From a virus (lineage: Duplodnaviria; Heunggongvirae; Uroviricota; Caudoviricetes): a DNA stretch of 51,251 nucleotides. Below, piece after piece: positions 4,134 to 46,191 of this stretch. A model generated the notes under the pieces. The model saw only the letters and a list, made by a program, of their open reading frames with translations. It did no database searches and was not told where the DNA came from. The stretch is from positions 1 through 51,251 of the IMG/VR virus record IMGVR_UViG_2870495154_000004; one strand, given 5' to 3'. The position numbers and the translations under genes are program-made. Numbering within the stretch: position 1 is the first letter of the stretch; every line of letters starts with the position of its first letter.

Positions 4134-5504
4134 ATGCTGAATCTTATCGTTGTCGGAACCCCCAAATACTACACTTTTTTTTCTGAACCCAGTGGCAATG
4201 ACTCTTTCCCTGTGTCGCGACTCTTCGAATCCACGCCAGAGTCTCTTAGAAGCAGATTGCTTCCCCTGACTGAAAAAACCTATCATTTTCTTCAGGAACT
4301 GCCCGTTGTATTTATGTCCGAGCCGGAAATTGAATTCGATGAAGATAATGAAAAAATAGGTTATTTCAGCCACATCCGCTTAGGAAAAATCAGCAAGATA
4401 AGTACGTCCGTGTATAACAGAGAAAAAGTTTTAGCGTTTGATTATGAGATTACCAGTGATATCGGCTACAAGCCCTTAACCAGCGATAAAGAGTACGTAA
4501 GTGAGCTGGAGCTGGGCAGTTTCGGACTAAACAGAACGTTCTGGGCGGTCAAAGAGATTTCCGTAAATGAGATTCTGCGTGTTTTAGGCCTTGAAGGCTA
4601 TTCTAATGTTGAGCCCGCAGCAGCGAGTGCGGAAGCACCGGAGAATAATGAAGAACTAGAGATCATTGCGAATATCAATCAGTACTTGCAGGTGATACTC
4701 GATCATACACAGGGAAACGATGAAGAGGTATTTTACCGCGGTCACTCGGACATCAACTACCAACTGGAACCCTCACTGTTCCGCAAGGATACTCAGGGTA
4801 ACTATCGCTACCGCCATCACGAATCGGACATGATAACAGAGCTGCTGACCGTGCAGCCCGCCGAGTTCAAAGACGATCGGTATATGCTAGATAAACTCGT
4901 GCGCATGCAACACTATGGCCTACCCACACGCCTGCTTGATGTATCAACAAACCCCTTGATCGCACTATATTTTGCCTGCTCTAAAATCAAGCACGATGAA
5001 AATAATCATGAAATTGACGGGAACGTCATTATTCTGACGACGCCCAAAAGTGAAATTAAGTTTTTCGACTCGGATACCGTAAGTTGCATAGCCAATCTTT
5101 CCCGTCTTCCCTCTCGTTTCAAAAGCAGCCTGAAAACTAATCTCACCATTCCGGCGTTTAACGAATCTGAAGAGTGCGGACAACTACTACACCTGATCCG
5201 CGATGAAAAGTCCTATTTCAAAAGCATCATCGATCCGGTCCACCTAAGTAAAATTGTTGTGGTCAAAGGTCGGCTCAGTAACGCACGTATTTCGTCCCAA
5301 TCAGGCGCTTTCCTGCTCTTTGGTGAAAACGTAGACCTACCGGAAACGGGACTCAGTACGCTGAACATCAAAAAGCTTGTTATTAGAAACAAAGAGCATC
5401 TGATGCAGCAACTGAGCCGCCTTGGCATTAACGAAAGCACGGTGTACCCCGGCATTGAGAAGGCTGCTACGGAAATTGCAAAACTATACGATGGACGAAT
5501 CTGA
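4134..5504 (+). CDS. FRG-domain protein with an uncharacterised N-terminal domain
   Basis: 456-aa ORF; C-terminal half carries the FRG signature (VFYRGHSD...YQLEPSLFR...QHYGLPTRLLDVSTNPLIALYFAC); SD-like GAGGA upstream. Confidence 0.6.
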   Translation: MLNLIVVGTPKYYTFFSEPSGNDSFPVSRLFESTPESLRSRLLPLTEKTYHFLQELPVVFMSEPEIEFDEDNEKIGYFSHIRLGKISKISTSVYNREKVLAFDYEITSDIGYKPLTSDKEYVSELELGSFGLNRTFWAVKEISVNEILRVLGLEGYSNVEPAAASAEAPENNEELEIIANINQYLQVILDHTQGNDEEVFYRGHSDINYQLEPSLFRKDTQGNYRYRHHESDMITELLTVQPAEFKDDRYMLDKLVRMQHYGLPTRLLDVSTNPLIALYFACSKIKHDENNHEIDGNVIILTTPKSEIKFFDSDTVSCIANLSRLPSRFKSSLKTNLTIPAFNESEECGQLLHLIRDEKSYFKSIIDPVHLSKIVVVKGRLSNARISSQSGAFLLFGENVDLPETGLSTLNIKKLVIRNKEHLMQQLSRLGINESTVYPGIEKAATEIAKLYDGRI

Positions 5505-37389: not shown

Positions 37390-37542
37390 GTTGACAGCAG
37401 AAAAAATTTACATTTAAACAGTGCAAAATTTGTTGACAACGCAAATGTCAATAGTTAATTATTGCGTCACCAGCTCAGCACTGTTCGTAGATAATATTTA
37501 GGGTCTACTCAACGGTTCTGAGCTTTTTTTGTGAGTTTTTCA

Positions 37543-38406
37543 ATGAAGAAAACAGCAGTCTTGATTGACGGCGGCTACTTCATCCGTCGGATTGATTACT
37601 TTCTACGAAAACATTTCCCTGGGCATGAGTTAGACAGCCAACAACTTGTTAAAATAATCTGGCGAATTGTTAAATTTCATGTAGAGGTTCCACATGGTGC
37701 TCACGCTGACCGTGAACCACTTGAGCTTTACCGTATTTACTATTACGACTGCCCGCCGCTTGATAAACAGATTAAGTATCCTTTGCCTGATGGAGACAAC
37801 AAAACCCCATCAACTAAAAACTTCAAGACACATGCTCCGAATGTTTTACGAAACAAGCTTCATGAGGAGCTAAGGAAGAATCGTAAAACGGCACTTCGTA
37901 TGGGTATTCTTTCAAACGTCGGTAACTGGCAAATAAAAGAACATACTCTTAAGAAACTATTACGTAATGAAATTCAATGGTCTGAGTTAACTAACGACGA
38001 TTTCTACTACGAATATAAACAAAAAGCCGTCGATATTAAGCTTGGTATGGATATAACTATCCTTGCTCATGAGAAACTAGTTGATGTGATCGTCCTGATT
38101 GCTGGCGATGCTGATTTCGTTCCTGCCGCTAAACATGCCCGTATAAAGGGTGTGGATTTTATCCTCGATCCAATGAACCAACAAGTTCCTCCCTCACTGG
38201 CAGAGCACGTCGATGGAGTGCAATCGAGCAACATTGTTGTTGCAATTGCTGATATTTGCAGAATCGTCCCAACAGTAAAACCTGATTGGTGGGACGATTA
38301 TATTGACAGACGCAAAGAGAAAAAACTCAATCGTCAAAAGAAAACAAAATCATCTAAGAACGAGCCCAAGAAAAAAACACTTCAATCTGAAACATCCCCG
38401 GCTTAA
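37543..38406 (+). CDS. NYN-domain (PIN-like RNase fold) protein
   Basis: AVLIDGGYF ... DIKLGMDI ... LIAGDADFVPA acidic motifs; lysine-rich tail; AT-rich; opposite strand to flanking phage genes. Confidence 0.6.
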   Translation: MKKTAVLIDGGYFIRRIDYFLRKHFPGHELDSQQLVKIIWRIVKFHVEVPHGAHADREPLELYRIYYYDCPPLDKQIKYPLPDGDNKTPSTKNFKTHAPNVLRNKLHEELRKNRKTALRMGILSNVGNWQIKEHTLKKLLRNEIQWSELTNDDFYYEYKQKAVDIKLGMDITILAHEKLVDVIVLIAGDADFVPAAKHARIKGVDFILDPMNQQVPPSLAEHVDGVQSSNIVVAIADICRIVPTVKPDWWDDYIDRRKEKKLNRQKKTKSSKNEPKKKTLQSETSPA

Positions 38407-41326: not shown

Positions 41327-41820
41327 TACGCCCCCACGTAATTCCCTGACAGATACCACTCATCACTCGATACAGCGCGCTTGCTGCTTTTCCGTAAACA
41401 CTGCTCACGACGCGCCAGAAAATTGTTTCGTTCTGGCTGGGAATGGCTTTCACGGAATGCCGCCATCCACACCGTTGCAGCACGACGGTATAAGCCCCTG
41501 GACTCCAGTTCTTCAGCCTGGCGGGTCAGGCACAAAATCTCCCGCGGGTCGTTAGTGCCGACATAGAAATTGCGCACAGGTCTGGTTTCACGAACTGGTT
41601 GCGGTTCCGCCTCCTGCGCTCTCTCAGTCAGGCGCGGGAAATGTCTGCGTGTATCCCCTTCACAACGGTGAGCCACACGACCACTCTGACGTAACTTGCT
41701 TGCTGACTGCAGAACGCGCTGCCGTGAGTAACCTGCAAAAGCATCCGCAATGTCTCCGGAAGTACACCCCGGATGGGCTTCAATGTATTTCTGAACTTCA
41801 TTCAAAAGACTCATGATCAC
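41326..41820 (-). CDS. hypothetical protein, possible PerC-like regulator
   Basis: 164-aa ORF downstream of O-like gene; AEELESRGLYRRAATVWMAAF resembles PerC-type motifs (weak). Confidence 0.35.
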   Translation of the reverse strand: MIMSLLNEVQKYIEAHPGCTSGDIADAFAGYSRQRVLQSASKLRQSGRVAHRCEGDTRRHFPRLTERAQEAEPQPVRETRPVRNFYVGTNDPREILCLTRQAEELESRGLYRRAATVWMAAFRESHSQPERNNFLARREQCLRKSSKRAVSSDEWYLSGNYVGA

Positions 41821-42758
41821 CCCCTGAATCCTGCCGGGATCTGGCTGTAGTCCACGTTGTCGTAACTGGCTTTGAAGTACGGGTCTTCGCGTTTTTCGGT
41901 GTACGTGCTGACGGACGGCGATAAGCGCAGGGAAAGCTCATCCCATTTTTCCCGCAGCTTCGACGGGCTGAGCACGTTACGGCACCAGAACGGATCGCGG
42001 CTGACGCGGCTGTACATCTCGCAGATTTGTTTGTGAGTACGACCATCCTGCACACACATCAGGCGAATTTCGTTTGCCCAGGCTGTCCAGTTCGGTTCTT
42101 TGGGACGAACCACCTCGCCGTCACATTCGGCGGCCTGCTCGTACAGGGCGATGATTTTTTTCCAGAGCCACTGTGCGCAGGTCAAATCATCCTGCGTTCC
42201 CCACTGGCGCTTTTTAGGGCTGAATACAACCGCATTAGGATGGCGAGTTAAAAACTCCTGTTCAGCCGTCTGCGTGTCCGGTTGCGAAGCGTCCGGACGA
42301 GAAGTTTTTTTATCTGACGGATCATGTTTTGATTTTACTGACGGATCCCCGCCAGATTCTGACGGGTGAAAACCCGCTTTTTTGCCAGATTTCGACGCAT
42401 CAAATTTTGACGGGTCAGATTTTGATGCGTCAGATTTTGACGGGTCAGAATCTGACAATTGAGAAAATGCCGCTGCCTGAAGCTTCGCAACGTTAAGCTG
42501 ATAAACATTCGACGCATTGCGGTTACCCTGGCGACGCGCCTTACGCGTTAACCAGCCTTCTGCTTCCAGCCGTGCGATAGCCGTTCTGACGGTACTCATC
42601 CCCGCGCCAATCTGACGGGCAATGGTTTCAATTGATGGCCAGCACACACCTTCGTCATTACTGAAATCAGCCAGGCGGGCCATAATTGCCACGCTGGATA
42701 ATTTCATGCCTGACGCAGCGCAACCATCCCATACATAGCCGGTTAATTTAGTGCTCAT
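41817..42758 (-). CDS. replication initiation protein, lambda O-like N-terminal HTH, with internal iteron-encoded repeat
   Basis: N-terminus MSTKLTGYVWDGCAASGMKLSSVAIMARLADFSNDEGVCWPSIETIA is Phage_rep_O-like; internal SKSDASKSDPSKFDASKS repeat. Confidence 0.75.
   Translation of the reverse strand: MSTKLTGYVWDGCAASGMKLSSVAIMARLADFSNDEGVCWPSIETIARQIGAGMSTVRTAIARLEAEGWLTRKARRQGNRNASNVYQLNVAKLQAAAFSQLSDSDPSKSDASKSDPSKFDASKSGKKAGFHPSESGGDPSVKSKHDPSDKKTSRPDASQPDTQTAEQEFLTRHPNAVVFSPKKRQWGTQDDLTCAQWLWKKIIALYEQAAECDGEVVRPKEPNWTAWANEIRLMCVQDGRTHKQICEMYSRVSRDPFWCRNVLSPSKLREKWDELSLRLSPSVSTYTEKREDPYFKASYDNVDYSQIPAGFRG
42386..42457. repeat. replication origin iterons (five tandem ~15-bp repeats inside the O-like gene)
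   Basis: tandem CAGATTTTGACGGGT-like units; same arrangement as lambda ori. Confidence 0.6.
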
Positions 42759-42767
42759 GACCGACCT

Positions 42768-43106
42768 CTATTTCCCTGAATTTACGACGAAACTGTTCGA
42801 GCGGACTGAAGCATTCATGCTCATAGCCTTCGCGGAGGTAGATAACCCGTTGTGTTTCCGGCTCCCAACGAATGACTCTGACGGGTACTCCGTAGTGATC
42901 TTTGAACCAGCGGTTAACTTGTCGCAAAGGACTGTCTCCTTTTGCCGGTTAAAATCACCCACAGCCCACTCTGCAAAGCTGTGGGTTACAATTACCCTGC
43001 CACCTGGTACATTTACTGCATAGCAATACTCCACCTTCGCTTTTCCACCCGGTACAGGAAGCGCAATCAGTTGCGAGCGACGGTAGTGTGTTGTTAAACT
43101 GTTCAT
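42768..43106 (-). CDS. small hypothetical ORF between CII-like and O-like genes
   Basis: 112-aa ORF filling the gap; competing plus-strand ORF 42751-43023; no motif. Confidence 0.2.
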
Positions 43107-43699
43107 GCGTTAGTTTCTCCACAGTCACGACACGCCACGGCGCCCGGAGCTGCACACTCGCGGGCGTCACTACTTTCTGAAACGCAAAAGATTTTGTAGA
43201 CCAGAGCTGCATGCTCCTGCAGCTTCGAAATTGAGAGGTACAGCTCATCGTTAATTGCTGTCTTCTCATGCGGTTCCACTACACCGTCTTCAATTGCTGA
43301 ACGAATCTGTCTGGAATAACTGCCGATCTGTTCAATGACTTCCAGCAGACGCTGGTTAATATCGGCATTGTCCACATCCTCGACGTCAGGAAGAGACACA
43401 AAGATGCCATTTGCAGACTGCGCCACAGCGTCAGCAATGAAGTGAGTTCCACCAGCACGTTGCAAAATCATTGCCCATCCCAGCGGGAAAATCTGATCGC
43501 CATCGGCACGAAGGCGGTTAAATAATGCGTTCTCTGTTACATCCAGCCAGTCAGCTGCTTCAGCGTAACCACCCGGCAACTTTGCGATAGTTTTTCTGAC
43601 AGCTTTCACGTACCACTCAGGCTGTTTTTCTACTTTCCAGTGATGCTTACCCACGGTTAGCCTCATCGTTCTGTGGTTTCTGTTAATCGATTTATCCAT
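43103..43699 (-). CDS. CII-like regulatory protein (CP76 phage-regulator family)
   Basis: ATG overlaps cro stop (AATGGATAA coupling); [22 protein letters not shown]...FIADAVAQ resembles CP76-type CII; alternative starts 43711 and 43768. Confidence 0.5.
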
Positions 43700-43892
43700 T
43701 AGATTTTTCATAAAGCTCAGGTTTAAATGGCAACCGTCCGCAAGTTCTATATGCAGCTTCTGCTGCACGTCCTTTTGGAATTAACTGGCCCGGACGGTTT
43801 CGCCACTGATAAACGGCTTCAGTTGTTATGCCGAAAAAAGCAGCAACTTTCTCAATACTGCCGAAGTAGCTTTCGATATCGTCAGTTGTCAT
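43692..43892 (-). CDS. cro: Cro-like repressor
   Basis: 66-aa HTH protein divergent from cI across the operator region. Confidence 0.75.
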   Translation of the reverse strand: MTTDDIESYFGSIEKVAAFFGITTEAVYQWRNRPGQLIPKGRAAEAAYRTCGRLPFKPELYEKSNG

Positions 43893-43989: not shown

Positions 43990-44616
43990 ATGGAAACGGT
44001 TGGTCAGCGTATAAAAGCTCTGAGAAGAGTTACCAGAACGTCCCAGAAAGAATTGGGTAAATTTTGTGGAGTAAGCGACGTTGCTGTGGGGTACTGGGAG
44101 AAAGACATCAATACCCCTGGCGGGGAGGCACTTTCGAAATTAGCGAAGTTCTTCAATACGTCAATAGATTACATTCTTTACGGTGCTGAGTTTGAAGGCA
44201 AACTCGTCACAAACATGCGCAGAGTTCCTGTAATATCGTGGGTTCAGGCTGGGCAGTTTACTGAGTGCAGGGCAGCAGAAGTGTTTAGTGAAGTGGACAA
44301 GTGGGTAGATACATCATTAAAGGTTGGTGATAACTCATTTGCATTAGAGGTTAAAGGTGACTCCATGACTAACCCTAATGGCCTCCCAACAATACCAGAA
44401 GGCGCAACAGTGATTGTAGATCCAGATGCAGAACCTCGTCATGGAAAAATAGTCATCGCTCGACTTGATGGAACAAACGAAGCTACAGTAAAAAAATTAG
44501 TCATCGATGGCCCTCAAAAGTTTTTAGTGCCATTAAATCCTCGGTATCCCAACATCCCTATCAATGGTAATTGCCTTATCATTGGTGTAGTCAAAGGAGT
44601 TCAATACGAACTCTAA
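43990..44616 (+). CDS. cI: CI-type prophage repressor (HTH + S24 LexA-like peptidase)
   Basis: 208 aa; N-terminal HTH, C-terminal S24-like domain with GDSM serine motif. Confidence 0.85.
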   Translation: METVGQRIKALRRVTRTSQKELGKFCGVSDVAVGYWEKDINTPGGEALSKLAKFFNTSIDYILYGAEFEGKLVTNMRRVPVISWVQAGQFTECRAAEVFSEVDKWVDTSLKVGDNSFALEVKGDSMTNPNGLPTIPEGATVIVDPDAEPRHGKIVIARLDGTNEATVKKLVIDGPQKFLVPLNPRYPNIPINGNCLIIGVVKGVQYEL

Positions 44617-44669
44617 GACCTCTCTTCTCTAACTAAGGCACCGAACCAAGAAAAGTTTGGTGTTTTCTC

Positions 44670-44698
44670 TTGTCATGATAACTAAGTTAAGTTAGATT
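44670..44698 (+). promoter_or_regulatory. candidate pL/OL: TTGTCA -35, 17-bp spacer containing a third CTAAG-type operator, TAGATT -10
   Basis: operator CTAAGTTAAGTTAG at 44682-44695, same family as the OR sites, 66 bp after the cI stop. Confidence 0.4.
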
Positions 44699-44781
44699 TT
44701 ATATCAAAGATAACGAACAGGCAGGACGCCCACGAAGTAGCCGCCTGGGGCATATGAAGTCCAGGATGATTCGTTAGCAAC

Positions 44782-44804
44782 AAAAAAGCGCCCTACAGGA
44801 CGCT
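44782..44804 (-). terminator. rho-independent terminator for the minus-strand gene 44844-45335
   Basis: minus-strand hairpin AGCGTCC-TGTA-GGGCGCT followed by TTTTTT, 40 bp after the stop. Confidence 0.5.
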
Positions 44805-44843
44805 TAGCTCTTTAACAATCTGGATATCCACAACAGTAGTAAT

Positions 44844-45335
44844 CTACAGATTGCCGTTAAGTTTTCTGGACAACTCCTCAATGGATGGAGGCGATACGTA
44901 ATCCGGATTTTTATTCATCAGAAACTTATTTTCACAGTGGAGGCACCTGCTTTTATGAAAAAGCTCATCTTCGCTAACCGGGAATGGTTGAAGTATCGAT
45001 ACTATCTTTTGTCCAAAACATTTTGGGCAAAGATGCATGGTTATGCTGCCACCGTTCACGATTACCTCCTTCGAGTATACAAAAGTACCCGACTCAAGTT
45101 GGTTAAGGATATAGCCTTCCGTCTGAGCCTCAAAGTTTTCGAATTCTGCAATTTTAGCTTTGAGAGAAGCATTTATTTCTTGATAAGAGCCCACCAGTTC
45201 AACGAGAGACACGCATTCGCGCTGAATAGACGCAAGCTTTGAGTTCAGCTCACCAATAGCCGCATTTACTTCAGCTTGAGTTTTTGCCTCGTTCATTAGT
45301 TTTGCAATCTGGGCTGTTTCACGAATAGCCGTCAT
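44844..45335 (-). CDS. hypothetical coiled-coil protein with C-terminal CxxC...CxxC zinc-ribbon
   Basis: about 163 aa from MTAIRETAQIAKL; CPKCFGQK ... CLHCENKF; opposite strand to cI and the early-left genes. Confidence 0.45.
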   Translation of the reverse strand: MTAIRETAQIAKLMNEAKTQAEVNAAIGELNSKLASIQRECVSLVELVGSYQEINASLKAKIAEFENFEAQTEGYILNQLESGTFVYSKEVIVNGGSITMHLCPKCFGQKIVSILQPFPVSEDELFHKSRCLHCENKFLMNKNPDYVSPPSIEELSRKLNGNL

Positions 45336-45373
45336 TGCTGCCGTTAATTCAGCGATCACATTGAATACTCTTA

Positions 45374-45419
45374 TTGTTGTTGGGGATATCCAGATTAACC
45401 GAATCCTTGTTGTTGGGGA
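45374..45419. repeat. two 13-bp direct repeats TTGTTGTTGGGGA spaced 33 bp apart, upstream of the Zn-ribbon gene
   Basis: exact copies at 45374-45386 and 45407-45419. Confidence 0.5.
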
Positions 45420-45692
45420 ATAACCAGGTCCACCTCGCCTGATGTGGCTAAAAGCAGGCACATAACAGCTAAGTATTTTCAACCAGAGAGAATCCTTAGC
45501 GTTGTGGTGAATGCGGCTCAGCGCACGCGGGTTAAGGTTGAGGCTGACAGTCGACCTTCTGTGGATACCCACCCGCCTGGTGTGCAACCTTCGCCAGGCA
45601 CCGGGAGGCACCCGGCACCACAACTTTATGCTGTGTGTAGTCCTGGCGGTATCAGCTTGTACCCTTGCTTCCGGCTGGTACCGTCCTTTTTA

Positions 45693-45779
45693 CAAAACAG
45701 AGAAGAGTATCACCGGACGACGGGCTCATAACCCAATCCATCCGGGCGGCTGCCACCGCAGGTGTTCTTCTCTGTTTTG
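45693..45779 (+). ncRNA. structured element: 14-bp perfect inverted repeat enclosing two GC-rich hairpins (candidate cis-acting RNA)
   Basis: CAAAACAGAGAAGA (45693-45706) pairs with TCTTCTCTGTTTTG (45766-45779); internal hairpins CCGGAC...CCGGG and GCGG-CTGCCA-CCGC. Confidence 0.3.
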
Positions 45780-45828
45780 TGGAGAAACCAACCGACCTTG
45801 CAGGGTCGATATGATGGGGAGCAGCAAA

Positions 45829-46191
45829 ATGGCTAGCGAACGCAGTACTGATGTGCAGGCATTTATCGGGGAGCTGGACGGCGGCGTATTTGAAACCAAA
45901 ATCGGCGCAGTTCTCAGTGAAGTCGCTTCCGGTGTGATGAACACGAAAACCAAAGGTAAGGTCTCGCTCAACCTGGAAATCGAACCGTTTGATGAGAACC
46001 GTGTAAAAATCAAACACAAACTCTCATATGTTCGCCCGACTAACCGCGGGAAAATTTCCGAAGAAGACACCACCGAAACGCCGATGTATGTCAATCGCGG
46101 TGGTCGCCTGACTATTCTGCAGGAAGACCAGGGACAATTACTGACTCTTGCCGGTGAACCTGACGGAAAACTCCGCGCAGCAGGTCGTTAA
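45829..46191 (+). CDS. hypothetical early protein (YfdP-like)
   Basis: GGAG 7 nt upstream of ATG 45829; about 120 aa; first gene of the plus-strand early-left cluster. Confidence 0.5.
   Translation: MASERSTDVQAFIGELDGGVFETKIGAVLSEVASGVMNTKTKGKVSLNLEIEPFDENRVKIKHKLSYVRPTNRGKISEEDTTETPMYVNRGGRLTILQEDQGQLLTLAGEPDGKLRAAGR

What the first reader, a model, noticed from the sequence alone, without database searches (positions are those of the whole stretch)
44670..45420. Independent Zn-ribbon gene in the rex-equivalent position beside cI, with its own repeats and terminator
Between the cI stop/OL-like operator and the early-left genes lies a minus-strand gene for a coiled-coil protein with a CPKC...CLHC zinc ribbon. 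It has an upstream region with two exact 13-bp direct repeats (TTGTTGTTGGGGA, 33 bp apart) and a downstream rho-independent terminator. In lambda this position holds rexAB, so a lysogen-expressed exclusion or defence function is a reasonable guess. Any pL transcript from the candidate promoter at 44670-44698 would be antisense to it.
Basis: partly seen in the sequence, partly recalled or inferred. Interest (0 to 1): 0.55.

Follow-up and report, generated by a model that had tools for sequence, protein, structure and literature searches.

The report
Rip1-family anti-phage pore gene beside cI
The small zinc-ribbon gene next to this E. coli prophage's repressor is a distant relative of Rip1, a recently described single-protein phage defence. 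It sits in a conserved slot that holds different unknown genes in related prophages.

Summary
A 171-aa gene lies on the minus strand at 44844-45359, with a GTG start. It has an intrinsic terminator (44786-44805) and two exact 13-bp repeats upstream (45374-45386, 45407-45419).

The protein belongs to the Rip1 ("ring interacting pore 1") family:
- A profile of 40 homologues hits PDB 9OOX (phage HK446 Rip1 bound to T6 small terminase) at E 2.8e-20 over the full length.
- The AlphaFold model (pLDDT 90.6) finds only 9OOX by Foldseek (prob 1.0).
- All four zinc-binding cysteines are invariant.

Like HK446 Rip1, HK620 HkaP and JBD30 gp30, the gene runs antisense to the surrounding lytic operon. Here it lies just downstream of pL/OL and an rrn-type boxA, so this is the N/sieB side of pL, not the rex position.

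The gene sits in a conserved dock of shared terminator, boxA, 13-26-nt inverted-repeat arms and a CA-rich leader. In related prophages the dock carries other genes of unknown function. In other genera it lies convergent with the repressor.

The defence reading is supported by homology only. Expression in the lysogen, the promoter and the trigger were not tested.

Verdict: a new member of a known kind, of moderate interest.

The parts
43990..44616 (+). cI-type prophage repressor (HTH_3 + Peptidase_S24). It is convergent with the target gene.
   Evidence: Pfam hits PF00717 at 1.8e-27 and PF01381 at 1.3e-9. RefSeq annotates it as a LexA family protein.
44670..44698 (+). pL-like sigma-70 promoter, TTGTCA-17-TAGATT. 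It overlaps the operator-like site ACTAAGTTAAGTTAG at 44681-44695.
   Evidence: The promoter scan scores it 9/12. The motif ACTAAGN5TTAG occurs exactly three times in the window: 43904, 43953 (the OR region) and 44681.
44712..44775 (+). Conserved early-left leader, shared with SfV-type phages of other immunity types.
   Evidence: BLAST to SfV gives 98% identity over 64 nt. The segment is present in 61 of 80 yfdP loci.
44776..44805 (-). Intrinsic terminator of the Rip1-like gene. The stem is 44805-44786, followed by a U-run.
   Evidence: The terminator scan finds 8 pairs, 5 of them G-C. The fold energy is -11.7 kcal/mol on the minus strand but only -7.5 kcal/mol, with no U-run, on the + strand. 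It is conserved downstream of homologues in other genera.
44807..44818 (+). rrn-type boxA (GCTCTTTAACAA) on the pL-sense strand, directly after the hairpin. This is a nut-like arrangement.
   Evidence: It is the single exact match in the window. It is identical to the rrn boxA-spacer ugcucuuuaacaa in Table 1 of PMC2724277. It is kept in 165 loci.
44817..44842 (.). Inverted-repeat arm A, 3' of the gene. The core on the mRNA strand is GGATATCCAGATT.
   Evidence: It forms a 26-nt inverted repeat, 85% complementary, with 45371-45396. The 13-nt core is paired in 88% of cells across 27 distinct arm combinations from 165 loci.
44844..45359 (-). Rip1-family gene, 171 aa, GTG start: two N-terminal helices followed by a C4 zinc-ribbon/beta domain.
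   Evidence: It matches phrog_1244 at 9e-60. Against PDB 9oox_L Rip1 the single sequence scores E 2.7e-7 and the profile 2.8e-20. The AF2 model has pLDDT 90.6. Foldseek returns 9oox_L/M at E 6e-7, prob 1.0.
45371..45396 (.). Inverted-repeat arm B, in the 5' leader. It contains direct-repeat copy 1 (45374-45386).
   Evidence: The point where homology between different cargo types breaks falls inside this arm, at 45375/45376.
45407..45419 (.). Direct-repeat copy 2 (arm C). On the mRNA it reads UCCCCAACAACAA followed by GGAUUC.
   Evidence: Exact match. It follows copy 1 in all 120 IMG/VR stretches found with copy 1 as the search pattern, even where the spacer diverges. It is conserved in 14 of 16 gene-upstream regions from other genera.
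45420..45470 (-). Conserved upstream leader block (GCCTGyCTTTT..CCAC.TCAGGC..GTGG). Conservation among genera begins here.
   Evidence: Comparison of upstream regions. The block is no more structured than shuffled sequence (z +0.6 to +0.7).
45471..45693 (+). STnc100/PasD-like prophage sRNA element on the pL-sense strand. Its 3' part is weakly DicF-like. It is context, not part of the gene.
   Evidence: Rfam RF02076 scores 40.5 bits (gathering score 47), E 1.7e-7 to 4.9e-7, covering the full model. RF00039 scores 20.5 bits.
45829..46191 (+). yfdP, the first early-left ORF downstream of the dock.
   Evidence: It matches phrog_204 at 1.2e-49. RefSeq annotates it as yfdP.

Best explanation
The gene encodes a Rip1-family, single-protein abortive-infection defence carried by the prophage as a moron.

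**Shown here**
- The protein is homologous over its full length, and in fold, to HK446 Rip1.
- Its C4 zinc site is conserved.
- It has its own terminator.
- It is oriented against the pL early-left operon.
- It sits in a conserved, exchangeable cassette dock next to the repressor.

**Inferred from the published Rip1 work** (Patel et al. 2026, read only through the review PMC13434031)
- In the lysogen, pL is repressed and the gene is expressed from the shared CA-rich leader.
- The protein is harmless on its own.
- When a superinfecting phage makes ring-shaped morphogenesis oligomers (small terminase or portal), the C-terminal zinc-ribbon/beta domain binds around the ring.
- About 12 copies assemble, and the N-terminal helices form a membrane pore.
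- The pore permeabilises the inner membrane before progeny mature.

**Further inference.** On induction, pL transcription carries an rrn-type boxA and reads through the cassette antisense to the gene. This would lower its expression, so that the prophage's own terminase and portal rings do not trigger it.
For: **Homology**
- phmmer of the single protein hits 9oox_L 'ring interacting pore 1 (Rip1)' at E 2.7e-7, aligning both CxxC pairs.
- The profile of 40 homologues hits it at E 2.8e-20, covering profile positions 5-152 of 170 and residues 15-160 of 164.
- The AF2 model has pLDDT 90.6. Foldseek against the PDB returns only 9oox_L/M below E 0.1: E 6e-7, prob 1.0, TM 0.55/0.71.
- tblastn links the protein directly to HK620 HkaP (3e-13), JBD30/DMS3/MP38/D3112 orf25 (2e-11) and HK446 gp37 (4e-4).
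- Five subfamilies share the four Cys, VY and ILQP.

**Gene arrangement**
- The same antisense-in-a-lytic-operon layout is seen in HK446, HK620 and JBD30.
- Here the layout is supported by pL/OL and by boxA.
- The neighbouring convergent gene is an HTH/S24 repressor in 9 of 10 loci tested from other genera.

**Published mechanism.** Summarised in PMC13434031. PMC13601566 cites Rip1 as a small-terminase sensor.
Against: - Identity to characterised Rip1 proteins is only 27-29%, so the trigger specificity, and even the effector mode, could differ.
- The N-terminal helices have no hydrophobic moment above shuffled controls, and there is no TM segment. Membrane insertion therefore rests on homology alone.
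- No sigma-70 promoter scoring at least 9/12 was found on the minus strand upstream of the gene. Expression in the lysogen is not shown.
- PADLOC (2023), Pfam and NCBIfam have no model that hits the protein.
- The primary Rip1 paper could not be read here.
Confidence: 0.72

Rival explanations
1. The protein has the Rip1 fold but serves the phage itself. For example, it could act as a checkpoint or lysis-timing factor that senses the phage's own terminase or portal assembly, rather than as a defence against other phages.
For: The prophage encodes its own Nu1-like small terminase and gpB-like portal, which could be ligands. The family is almost always phage-borne.
Against: In four independent contexts the gene is antisense to the lytic operon and has its own terminator. 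That is the layout of lysogen-expressed morons, not of late genes. Deletion and expression tests on Rip1 itself showed defence (review PMC13434031).
Confidence: 0.1
2. It is a classical superinfection-exclusion protein that blocks DNA entry or early steps at the membrane, as the HK620 annotation of hkaP proposes. On this reading there is no ring sensing and no cell death.
For: HK620 hkaP, a homologue at 28% identity, is annotated 'putative superinfection exclusion protein'. Its position resembles that of sieB-type genes in the pL region.
Against: That annotation is only a guess by its depositors. The protein has no TM segment. The solved homologue is a complex with a late protein, small terminase.
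Confidence: 0.1
3. It is a DksA/TraR-like or other nucleic-acid-binding coiled-coil zinc-finger regulator of transcription in the immunity region.
For: The architecture is a coiled coil followed by a C4 zinc motif, and the gene lies next to cI.
Against: There is no Pfam zf-dskA_traR or other DNA-binding hit. Foldseek finds only Rip1 among solved structures.
Confidence: 0.04

Closest known systems
Rip1 of Escherichia phage HK446 (gp37, PDB 9OOX); Patel et al. 2026, Nature 651:1060
   Same: - Homologous over the full length (profile E 2.8e-20).
- Same fold: N-terminal helices followed by a C4 zinc-ribbon/beta domain.
- Similar size (164 versus 171 aa).
- A single gene, antisense within the pL operon of a lambdoid prophage.
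   Different: - Only about 27-28% identical.
- HK446 Rip1 lies after N, between N and the cIII-kil genes. This gene lies directly after pL/boxA and before an sRNA-like element and yfdP.
- This gene sits in an inverted-repeat-bracketed dock shared with unrelated cargo genes.
- Its trigger and phenotype are untested.
Pseudomonas aeruginosa Mu-like phage Rip1 homologues (JBD30 gp30, D3112/MP38 orf25, DMS3)
   Same: - 29% identity at E 2e-11 over 89% of the query.
- Same length class.
- Antisense to the flanking phage operon.
   Different: They lie between the small and large terminase genes in the late region, not in the immunity region. The host genus is different.
HK620 HkaP ('putative superinfection exclusion protein')
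   Same: - 28% identity at E 3e-13.
- Antisense inside the pL operon of a lambdoid phage.
   Different: It is a different subfamily, and its function was never tested as far as the record shows.
Lambda RexAB
   Same: It is a lysogen-expressed abortive-infection function in the immunity region that ends in membrane permeabilisation.
   Different: - Rex is a two-gene system, co-transcribed with cI from pRM and lying between cI and OL.
- RexB is a polytopic membrane channel.
- Here there is a single soluble-looking protein, convergent with cI and lying beyond pL/OL.
- There is no sequence relation.
rrn/lambda nut boxA antitermination sites
   Same: The sequence GCUCUUUAACAA is identical to the rrn boxA plus spacer. 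It lies about 110 nt downstream of the pL-like promoter, next to a hairpin.
   Different: No N-like gene or boxB was identified, and antitermination was not tested.

Membership tests
Rip1 (ring interacting pore 1) defence family | Full-length sequence homology to an experimentally characterised Rip1 | tested here: met
   The single sequence hits 9oox_L at E 2.7e-7 and the profile at E 2.8e-20, covering residues 15-160 of 164.
Rip1 (ring interacting pore 1) defence family | Fold: long N-terminal helices followed by a C-terminal beta domain that contacts the ring | tested here: met
   The AF2 model has pLDDT 90.6, with helices at 2-24 and 28-79 and strands at 84-150. Foldseek returns 9oox_L/M with prob 1.0 and TM up to 0.71, and no other hit below E 0.1.
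Rip1 (ring interacting pore 1) defence family | Two CxxC pairs (C4 zinc site) in the C-terminal domain | tested here: met
   C111, C114, C139 and C142 are invariant in 40 homologues and in 5 subfamilies that include HK446 and JBD30.
Rip1 (ring interacting pore 1) defence family | Small single gene carried by a prophage and set apart from the lytic operons | tested here: met
   The protein is 171 aa. It has its own terminator and runs antisense to the pL unit. The same layout is seen in HK446, HK620 and JBD30.
Rip1 (ring interacting pore 1) defence family | Amphipathic N-terminal helix able to form a membrane pore | tested here: inconclusive
   The helices are predicted with confidence. Their hydrophobic moment, however, is not above shuffled controls (controls reach it in 23-29% of cases), and there is no TM segment.
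Rip1 (ring interacting pore 1) defence family | Non-toxic alone; activated by oligomeric small terminase or portal rings; forms a roughly 12-mer pore; protects against phage | not testable with these tools
   This needs plating, co-expression and structural experiments. The description is known only from the review PMC13434031.
Lambda Rex-type exclusion module | Two genes co-transcribed with cI, lying between cI and OL, one of them a polytopic membrane protein | tested here: not met
   This is a single gene, convergent with cI and lying beyond pL/OL, with no TM segment.
DksA/TraR zinc-finger regulators | zf-dskA_traR domain after a coiled coil | tested here: not met
   There is no such Pfam hit at E up to 0.1 and no structural match.
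Intrinsic (rho-independent) terminator | G+C-rich stem-loop followed by a U-run, just after the stop codon on the gene's strand | tested here: met
   The stem has 8 pairs and is followed by UUUUUUG, 38 nt after the stop codon. Its energy is -11.7 kcal/mol. It is conserved in other genera.

The most novel reading that the evidence does not exclude
The locus is a conserved, exchangeable 'antisense defence dock' of lambdoid prophages in Enterobacterales. It comprises a terminator, an rrn-type boxA, a 13-26-nt inverted repeat bracketing the cargo, and a CA-rich tandem-repeat leader.

Two things would follow if this reading is right:
- pL read-through on induction, possibly helped by pairing of the arms and RNase III processing, switches the cargo off. 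That would give the prophage built-in self-immunity to its own terminase and portal rings.
- The other cargo families found in the same dock (phrog_5286, phrog_3983, and phrog_6315 with two predicted TM segments) would be undescribed anti-phage genes.
Probability: 0.3. Interest if true: 0.6.

Novelty: new member of a known kind. Interest (0 to 1): 0.42.

Why it matters
- **A likely function for a common gene.** The gene is annotated 'hypothetical protein'. This allele and its context are present in at least 382 of 5,426 complete E. coli genomes.
- **A wider Rip1 family.** The result extends the newly described family to a divergent enterobacterial subfamily. A profile of that subfamily reaches 2,751 clusters at 50% identity.
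- **Leads for new defence genes.** The shared dock, with its alternative cargos of unknown function, is a practical guilt-by-location lead.
- **A testable self-immunity question.** The antisense pL/boxA layout offers a concrete way to ask how a prophage avoids triggering its own ring sensor.

Tried and rejected
- **Domain libraries.** Pfam, NCBIfam and PADLOC gave only sub-threshold coiled-coil noise for the protein.
- **Regulator reading.** A DksA/TraR-type or other regulator was rejected for lack of domain and fold matches.
- **Promoter.** None was found. The scan lists no minus-strand site between 45360 and 45830. Hand inspection gave only weak TGnTAT-like candidates, which I do not rely on.
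- **Repeat motifs, by eye.** I compared the repeats with CII-type TTGC-N6-TTGC sites, DnaA boxes, CsrA sites (ACAAGGAU) and Hfq (ARN)n sites. The DnaA-like bases are not conserved across loci. The CsrA and Hfq readings remain untested ideas.
- **Leader structure.** The leader at 45360-45470 is no more structured than shuffled sequence.
- **Inverted-repeat arms.** Covariation is mixed. There are two-sided changes at two positions but many one-sided ones. RNA pairing cannot be told apart from a symmetric DNA site or from recombination boundaries.
- **Amphipathicity.** Not significant.
- **Primary Rip1 paper.** Not held in the library.
- **Alternative cargo proteins.** No Pfam, PADLOC or PDB hits.

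Full report
**Setting**

The window is E. coli chromosome: the query stretch 44600-45850 is 100% identical to strain CREC-532. It holds a lambdoid prophage integrated at a tRNA-Thr gene next to proA. The structural genes are lambda-like and the early-left genes are of the SfV/KplE1 type (yfdP, yfdQ, yfdR).

The immunity region reads as follows:

| Feature | Coordinates | Strand |
|---|---|---|
| O-like replication gene | 41817-42758 | - |
| CII-like gene | 43103-43768 | - |
| cro | 43692-43892 | - |
| cI (HTH + S24) | 43990-44616 | + |
| target gene | 44844-45359 | - |
| yfdP | 45829-46191 | + |

**Checking the observation**

All elements are present.

- The ORF ends at 44844. The conserved N-terminus MIAEL... 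in 40 homologues, and RefSeq, place the start at GTG 45359, giving 171 aa.
- The CPKC and CLHC pairs are there, and all four cysteines are invariant.
- The exact 13-mers lie at 45374-45386 and 45407-45419, 33 bp apart start to start.
- A terminator with an 8-bp stem at 44805-44786 and a U-run follows the stop codon by 38 nt.
- A promoter-like site, TTGTCA-17-TAGATT, lies at 44670-44698 on the + strand. It overlaps ACTAAGTTAAGTTAG. That motif occurs exactly only three times in the window, and the other two copies lie between cro and cI. This fits an OL/pL assignment.

**What the protein is**

Domain libraries give nothing beyond phrog_1244, a family of unknown function. The evidence for Rip1 comes from solved structures:

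- Against the sequences of solved structures, the single protein hits 9oox_L, 'ring interacting pore 1 (Rip1)', at E 2.7e-7. Both CxxC pairs are aligned.
- A profile of 40 homologues hits 9oox_L at E 2.8e-20 over essentially the whole length.
- The AlphaFold model (pLDDT 90.6) has helices at 2-24 and 28-79, followed by a beta-rich zinc-ribbon domain.
- Foldseek against the PDB returns only 9oox_L/M below E 0.1. That entry is HK446 Rip1 bound to T6 small terminase. The match has E 6e-7, probability 1.0, TM up to 0.71 and 28% identity.
- tblastn connects the protein directly to HK620 HkaP, HK446 gp37, and JBD30/DMS3/MP38/D3112 orf25 of Pseudomonas phages.
- An alignment of these subfamilies keeps the four Cys, VY and ILQP.
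- The profile reaches 2,751 clusters at 50% identity in the large protein library.

**What Rip1 does**

I could read this only through a 2026 review (PMC13434031). Two short mentions in other papers support it.

- Rip1 is a prophage protein that is not toxic on its own.
- It is activated by ring-shaped small terminase or portal oligomers.
- It forms a 12-mer around an 11-mer terminase ring.
- It makes a pore that disrupts the inner membrane before progeny mature.

The primary paper (Patel et al. 2026, Nature 651:1060) is not held in the library.

**Gene arrangement**

In every context examined, the Rip1 homologue is antisense to the flanking lytic operon:

- In HK446 it lies between N and the cIII-kil genes.
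- In HK620 it lies in the corresponding slot of the pL operon, between hkaQ (next to N) and cIII.
- In JBD30 it lies between the small and large terminase genes.
- Here it is the first thing downstream of pL.

On the pL-sense strand, the terminator hairpin is followed immediately by GCTCTTTAACAA at 44807-44818. This is the only exact copy in the window, and it is identical to the rrn boxA plus spacer (PMC2724277 Table 1). The hairpin is weaker on the + strand and has no U-run there. pL transcripts should therefore read through the gene antisense.

The position is thus the N/sieB side of pL, not the rex position.

**The repeats and the dock**

Comparison with SfV and phage 689R6, with 80 yfdP loci and with 120 further loci shows that the gene sits in a slot with shared flanks.

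- **Shared flanks.** On one side are the leader at 44712-44775 and the terminator plus boxA at 44776-44823. On the other side, shared sequence runs from 45376 onward and contains both repeats.
- **Alternative cargos.** Between these flanks the cargo alternates among:
  - several divergent Rip1-like alleles;
  - a 144-151-aa family (phrog_5286);
  - a 167-aa family (phrog_3983);
  - a 157-171-aa family with two hydrophobic segments (phrog_6315).

  None of these has a known function. Other loci lack these flanks and carry SfV orf33-type genes instead.
- **Inverted repeat.** The first 13-mer is part of a 26-nt inverted repeat that brackets the cargo, 44817-44842 against 45371-45396. The second 13-mer is a tandem copy of that arm. 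The same bracket surrounds all five cargo types.
- **Conservation of the core.** The 13-nt core is paired in 88% of cells across 27 distinct arm combinations from 165 loci. There are two-sided changes at two positions, but also many one-sided changes.
- **RNA folding.** The minimum-energy and centroid folds of the mRNA pair the 5' arm with the 3' arm.
- **Other genera.** The leader, both repeats, the arm, boxA and the terminator recur around Rip1-like genes in Citrobacter, Kosakonia, Enterobacter, Edwardsiella, Symbiopectobacterium and a Klebsiella phage. There the gene is again convergent with an HTH or HTH+S24 repressor, in 9 of 10 loci tested.

What the repeats do is not settled. The options are:
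- a translation or Hfq/CsrA-type leader element;
- an RNase III-type stem formed between the two arms;
- a symmetric protein-binding site;
- recombination boundaries for cassette exchange.

No promoter was identified.

**Mechanism**

*Shown:* the homology, the fold, the zinc site, the gene's own terminator, the antisense layout and the dock.

*Inferred:*
- the gene is expressed in the lysogen;
- the protein senses ring-shaped morphogenesis proteins through its C-terminal domain;
- it forms a pore through its N-terminal helices;
- pL read-through down-regulates it on induction.

*Weak points:*
- identity to characterised members is low;
- amphipathicity is not significant;
- the promoter is unknown.

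**Novelty**

The family has been known since 2026, and its authors reported wide distribution in prophages. This gene is therefore a new member of a known kind.

I did not find two things described in what I could read. One is the conserved dock with its boxA and inverted-repeat architecture. The other is the set of alternative cargos, which are candidate defence genes. These are the more interesting part of the finding.

Noticed in passing
window 45471-45693 (+): A full-length but sub-threshold match to the prophage sRNA family STnc100 (40.5 bits against a gathering score of 47; E about 2e-7 to 5e-7). Its 3' part is weakly DicF-like. It lies between the dock and yfdP on the pL-sense strand. 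RefSeq annotates 45504-45814 as a 'frameshifted hypothetical protein', which is more likely this RNA. A 2026 preprint reports STnc100 and PasD as related prophage sRNAs.
   Followed up: partly
window 44807-44818 (+): An exact rrn-type boxA (GCTCTTTAACAA) about 110 nt downstream of the pL-like promoter, just after a hairpin. It suggests Nus-factor antitermination of the early-left transcript. No N-like gene was identified.
   Followed up: partly
window 44817-44842 and 45371-45396; loci L003, L035, L039, L078, L087 and others: A 13-26-nt inverted repeat brackets whatever cargo gene occupies this slot. It is conserved across five cargo types and several genera. Its function is unexplained.
   Followed up: partly
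L007/L003 (144 aa), L035 (167 aa), L078 (157 aa, two hydrophobic segments), L010/L002 (81 aa and SfV orf33): Alternative genes occupy the same slot in related prophages (phrog_5286, phrog_3983, phrog_6315, phrog_3311). None hits Pfam or PADLOC, and the two searched against the PDB (144 aa and 157 aa) gave no meaningful match. By location they are candidate defence genes.
   Followed up: partly
window 45692-45706 / 45766-45780: A perfect 15-nt inverted repeat with a 59-nt loop, in the universally conserved leader just upstream of yfdP.
   Followed up: no
window 44937-45242 (+): The in-register antisense frame of the Rip1-like gene stays open for 100-133 codons in 20 of 22 non-redundant homologues. 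Synonymous-codon shuffles reach the observed length in only 1-27% of trials. This is a weak signal. It could be a codon-position effect or an antisense ORF on the pL transcript.
   Followed up: partly
window 37531-38406 (+) and 4134-5504 (+): Two further moron-like genes. One encodes an NYN-domain protein and is antisense just after the Q antiterminator gene. The other encodes an FRG-domain protein near the far end of the prophage. Names come from the RefSeq annotation of the identical record, and the ORFs were confirmed in the window.
   Followed up: no
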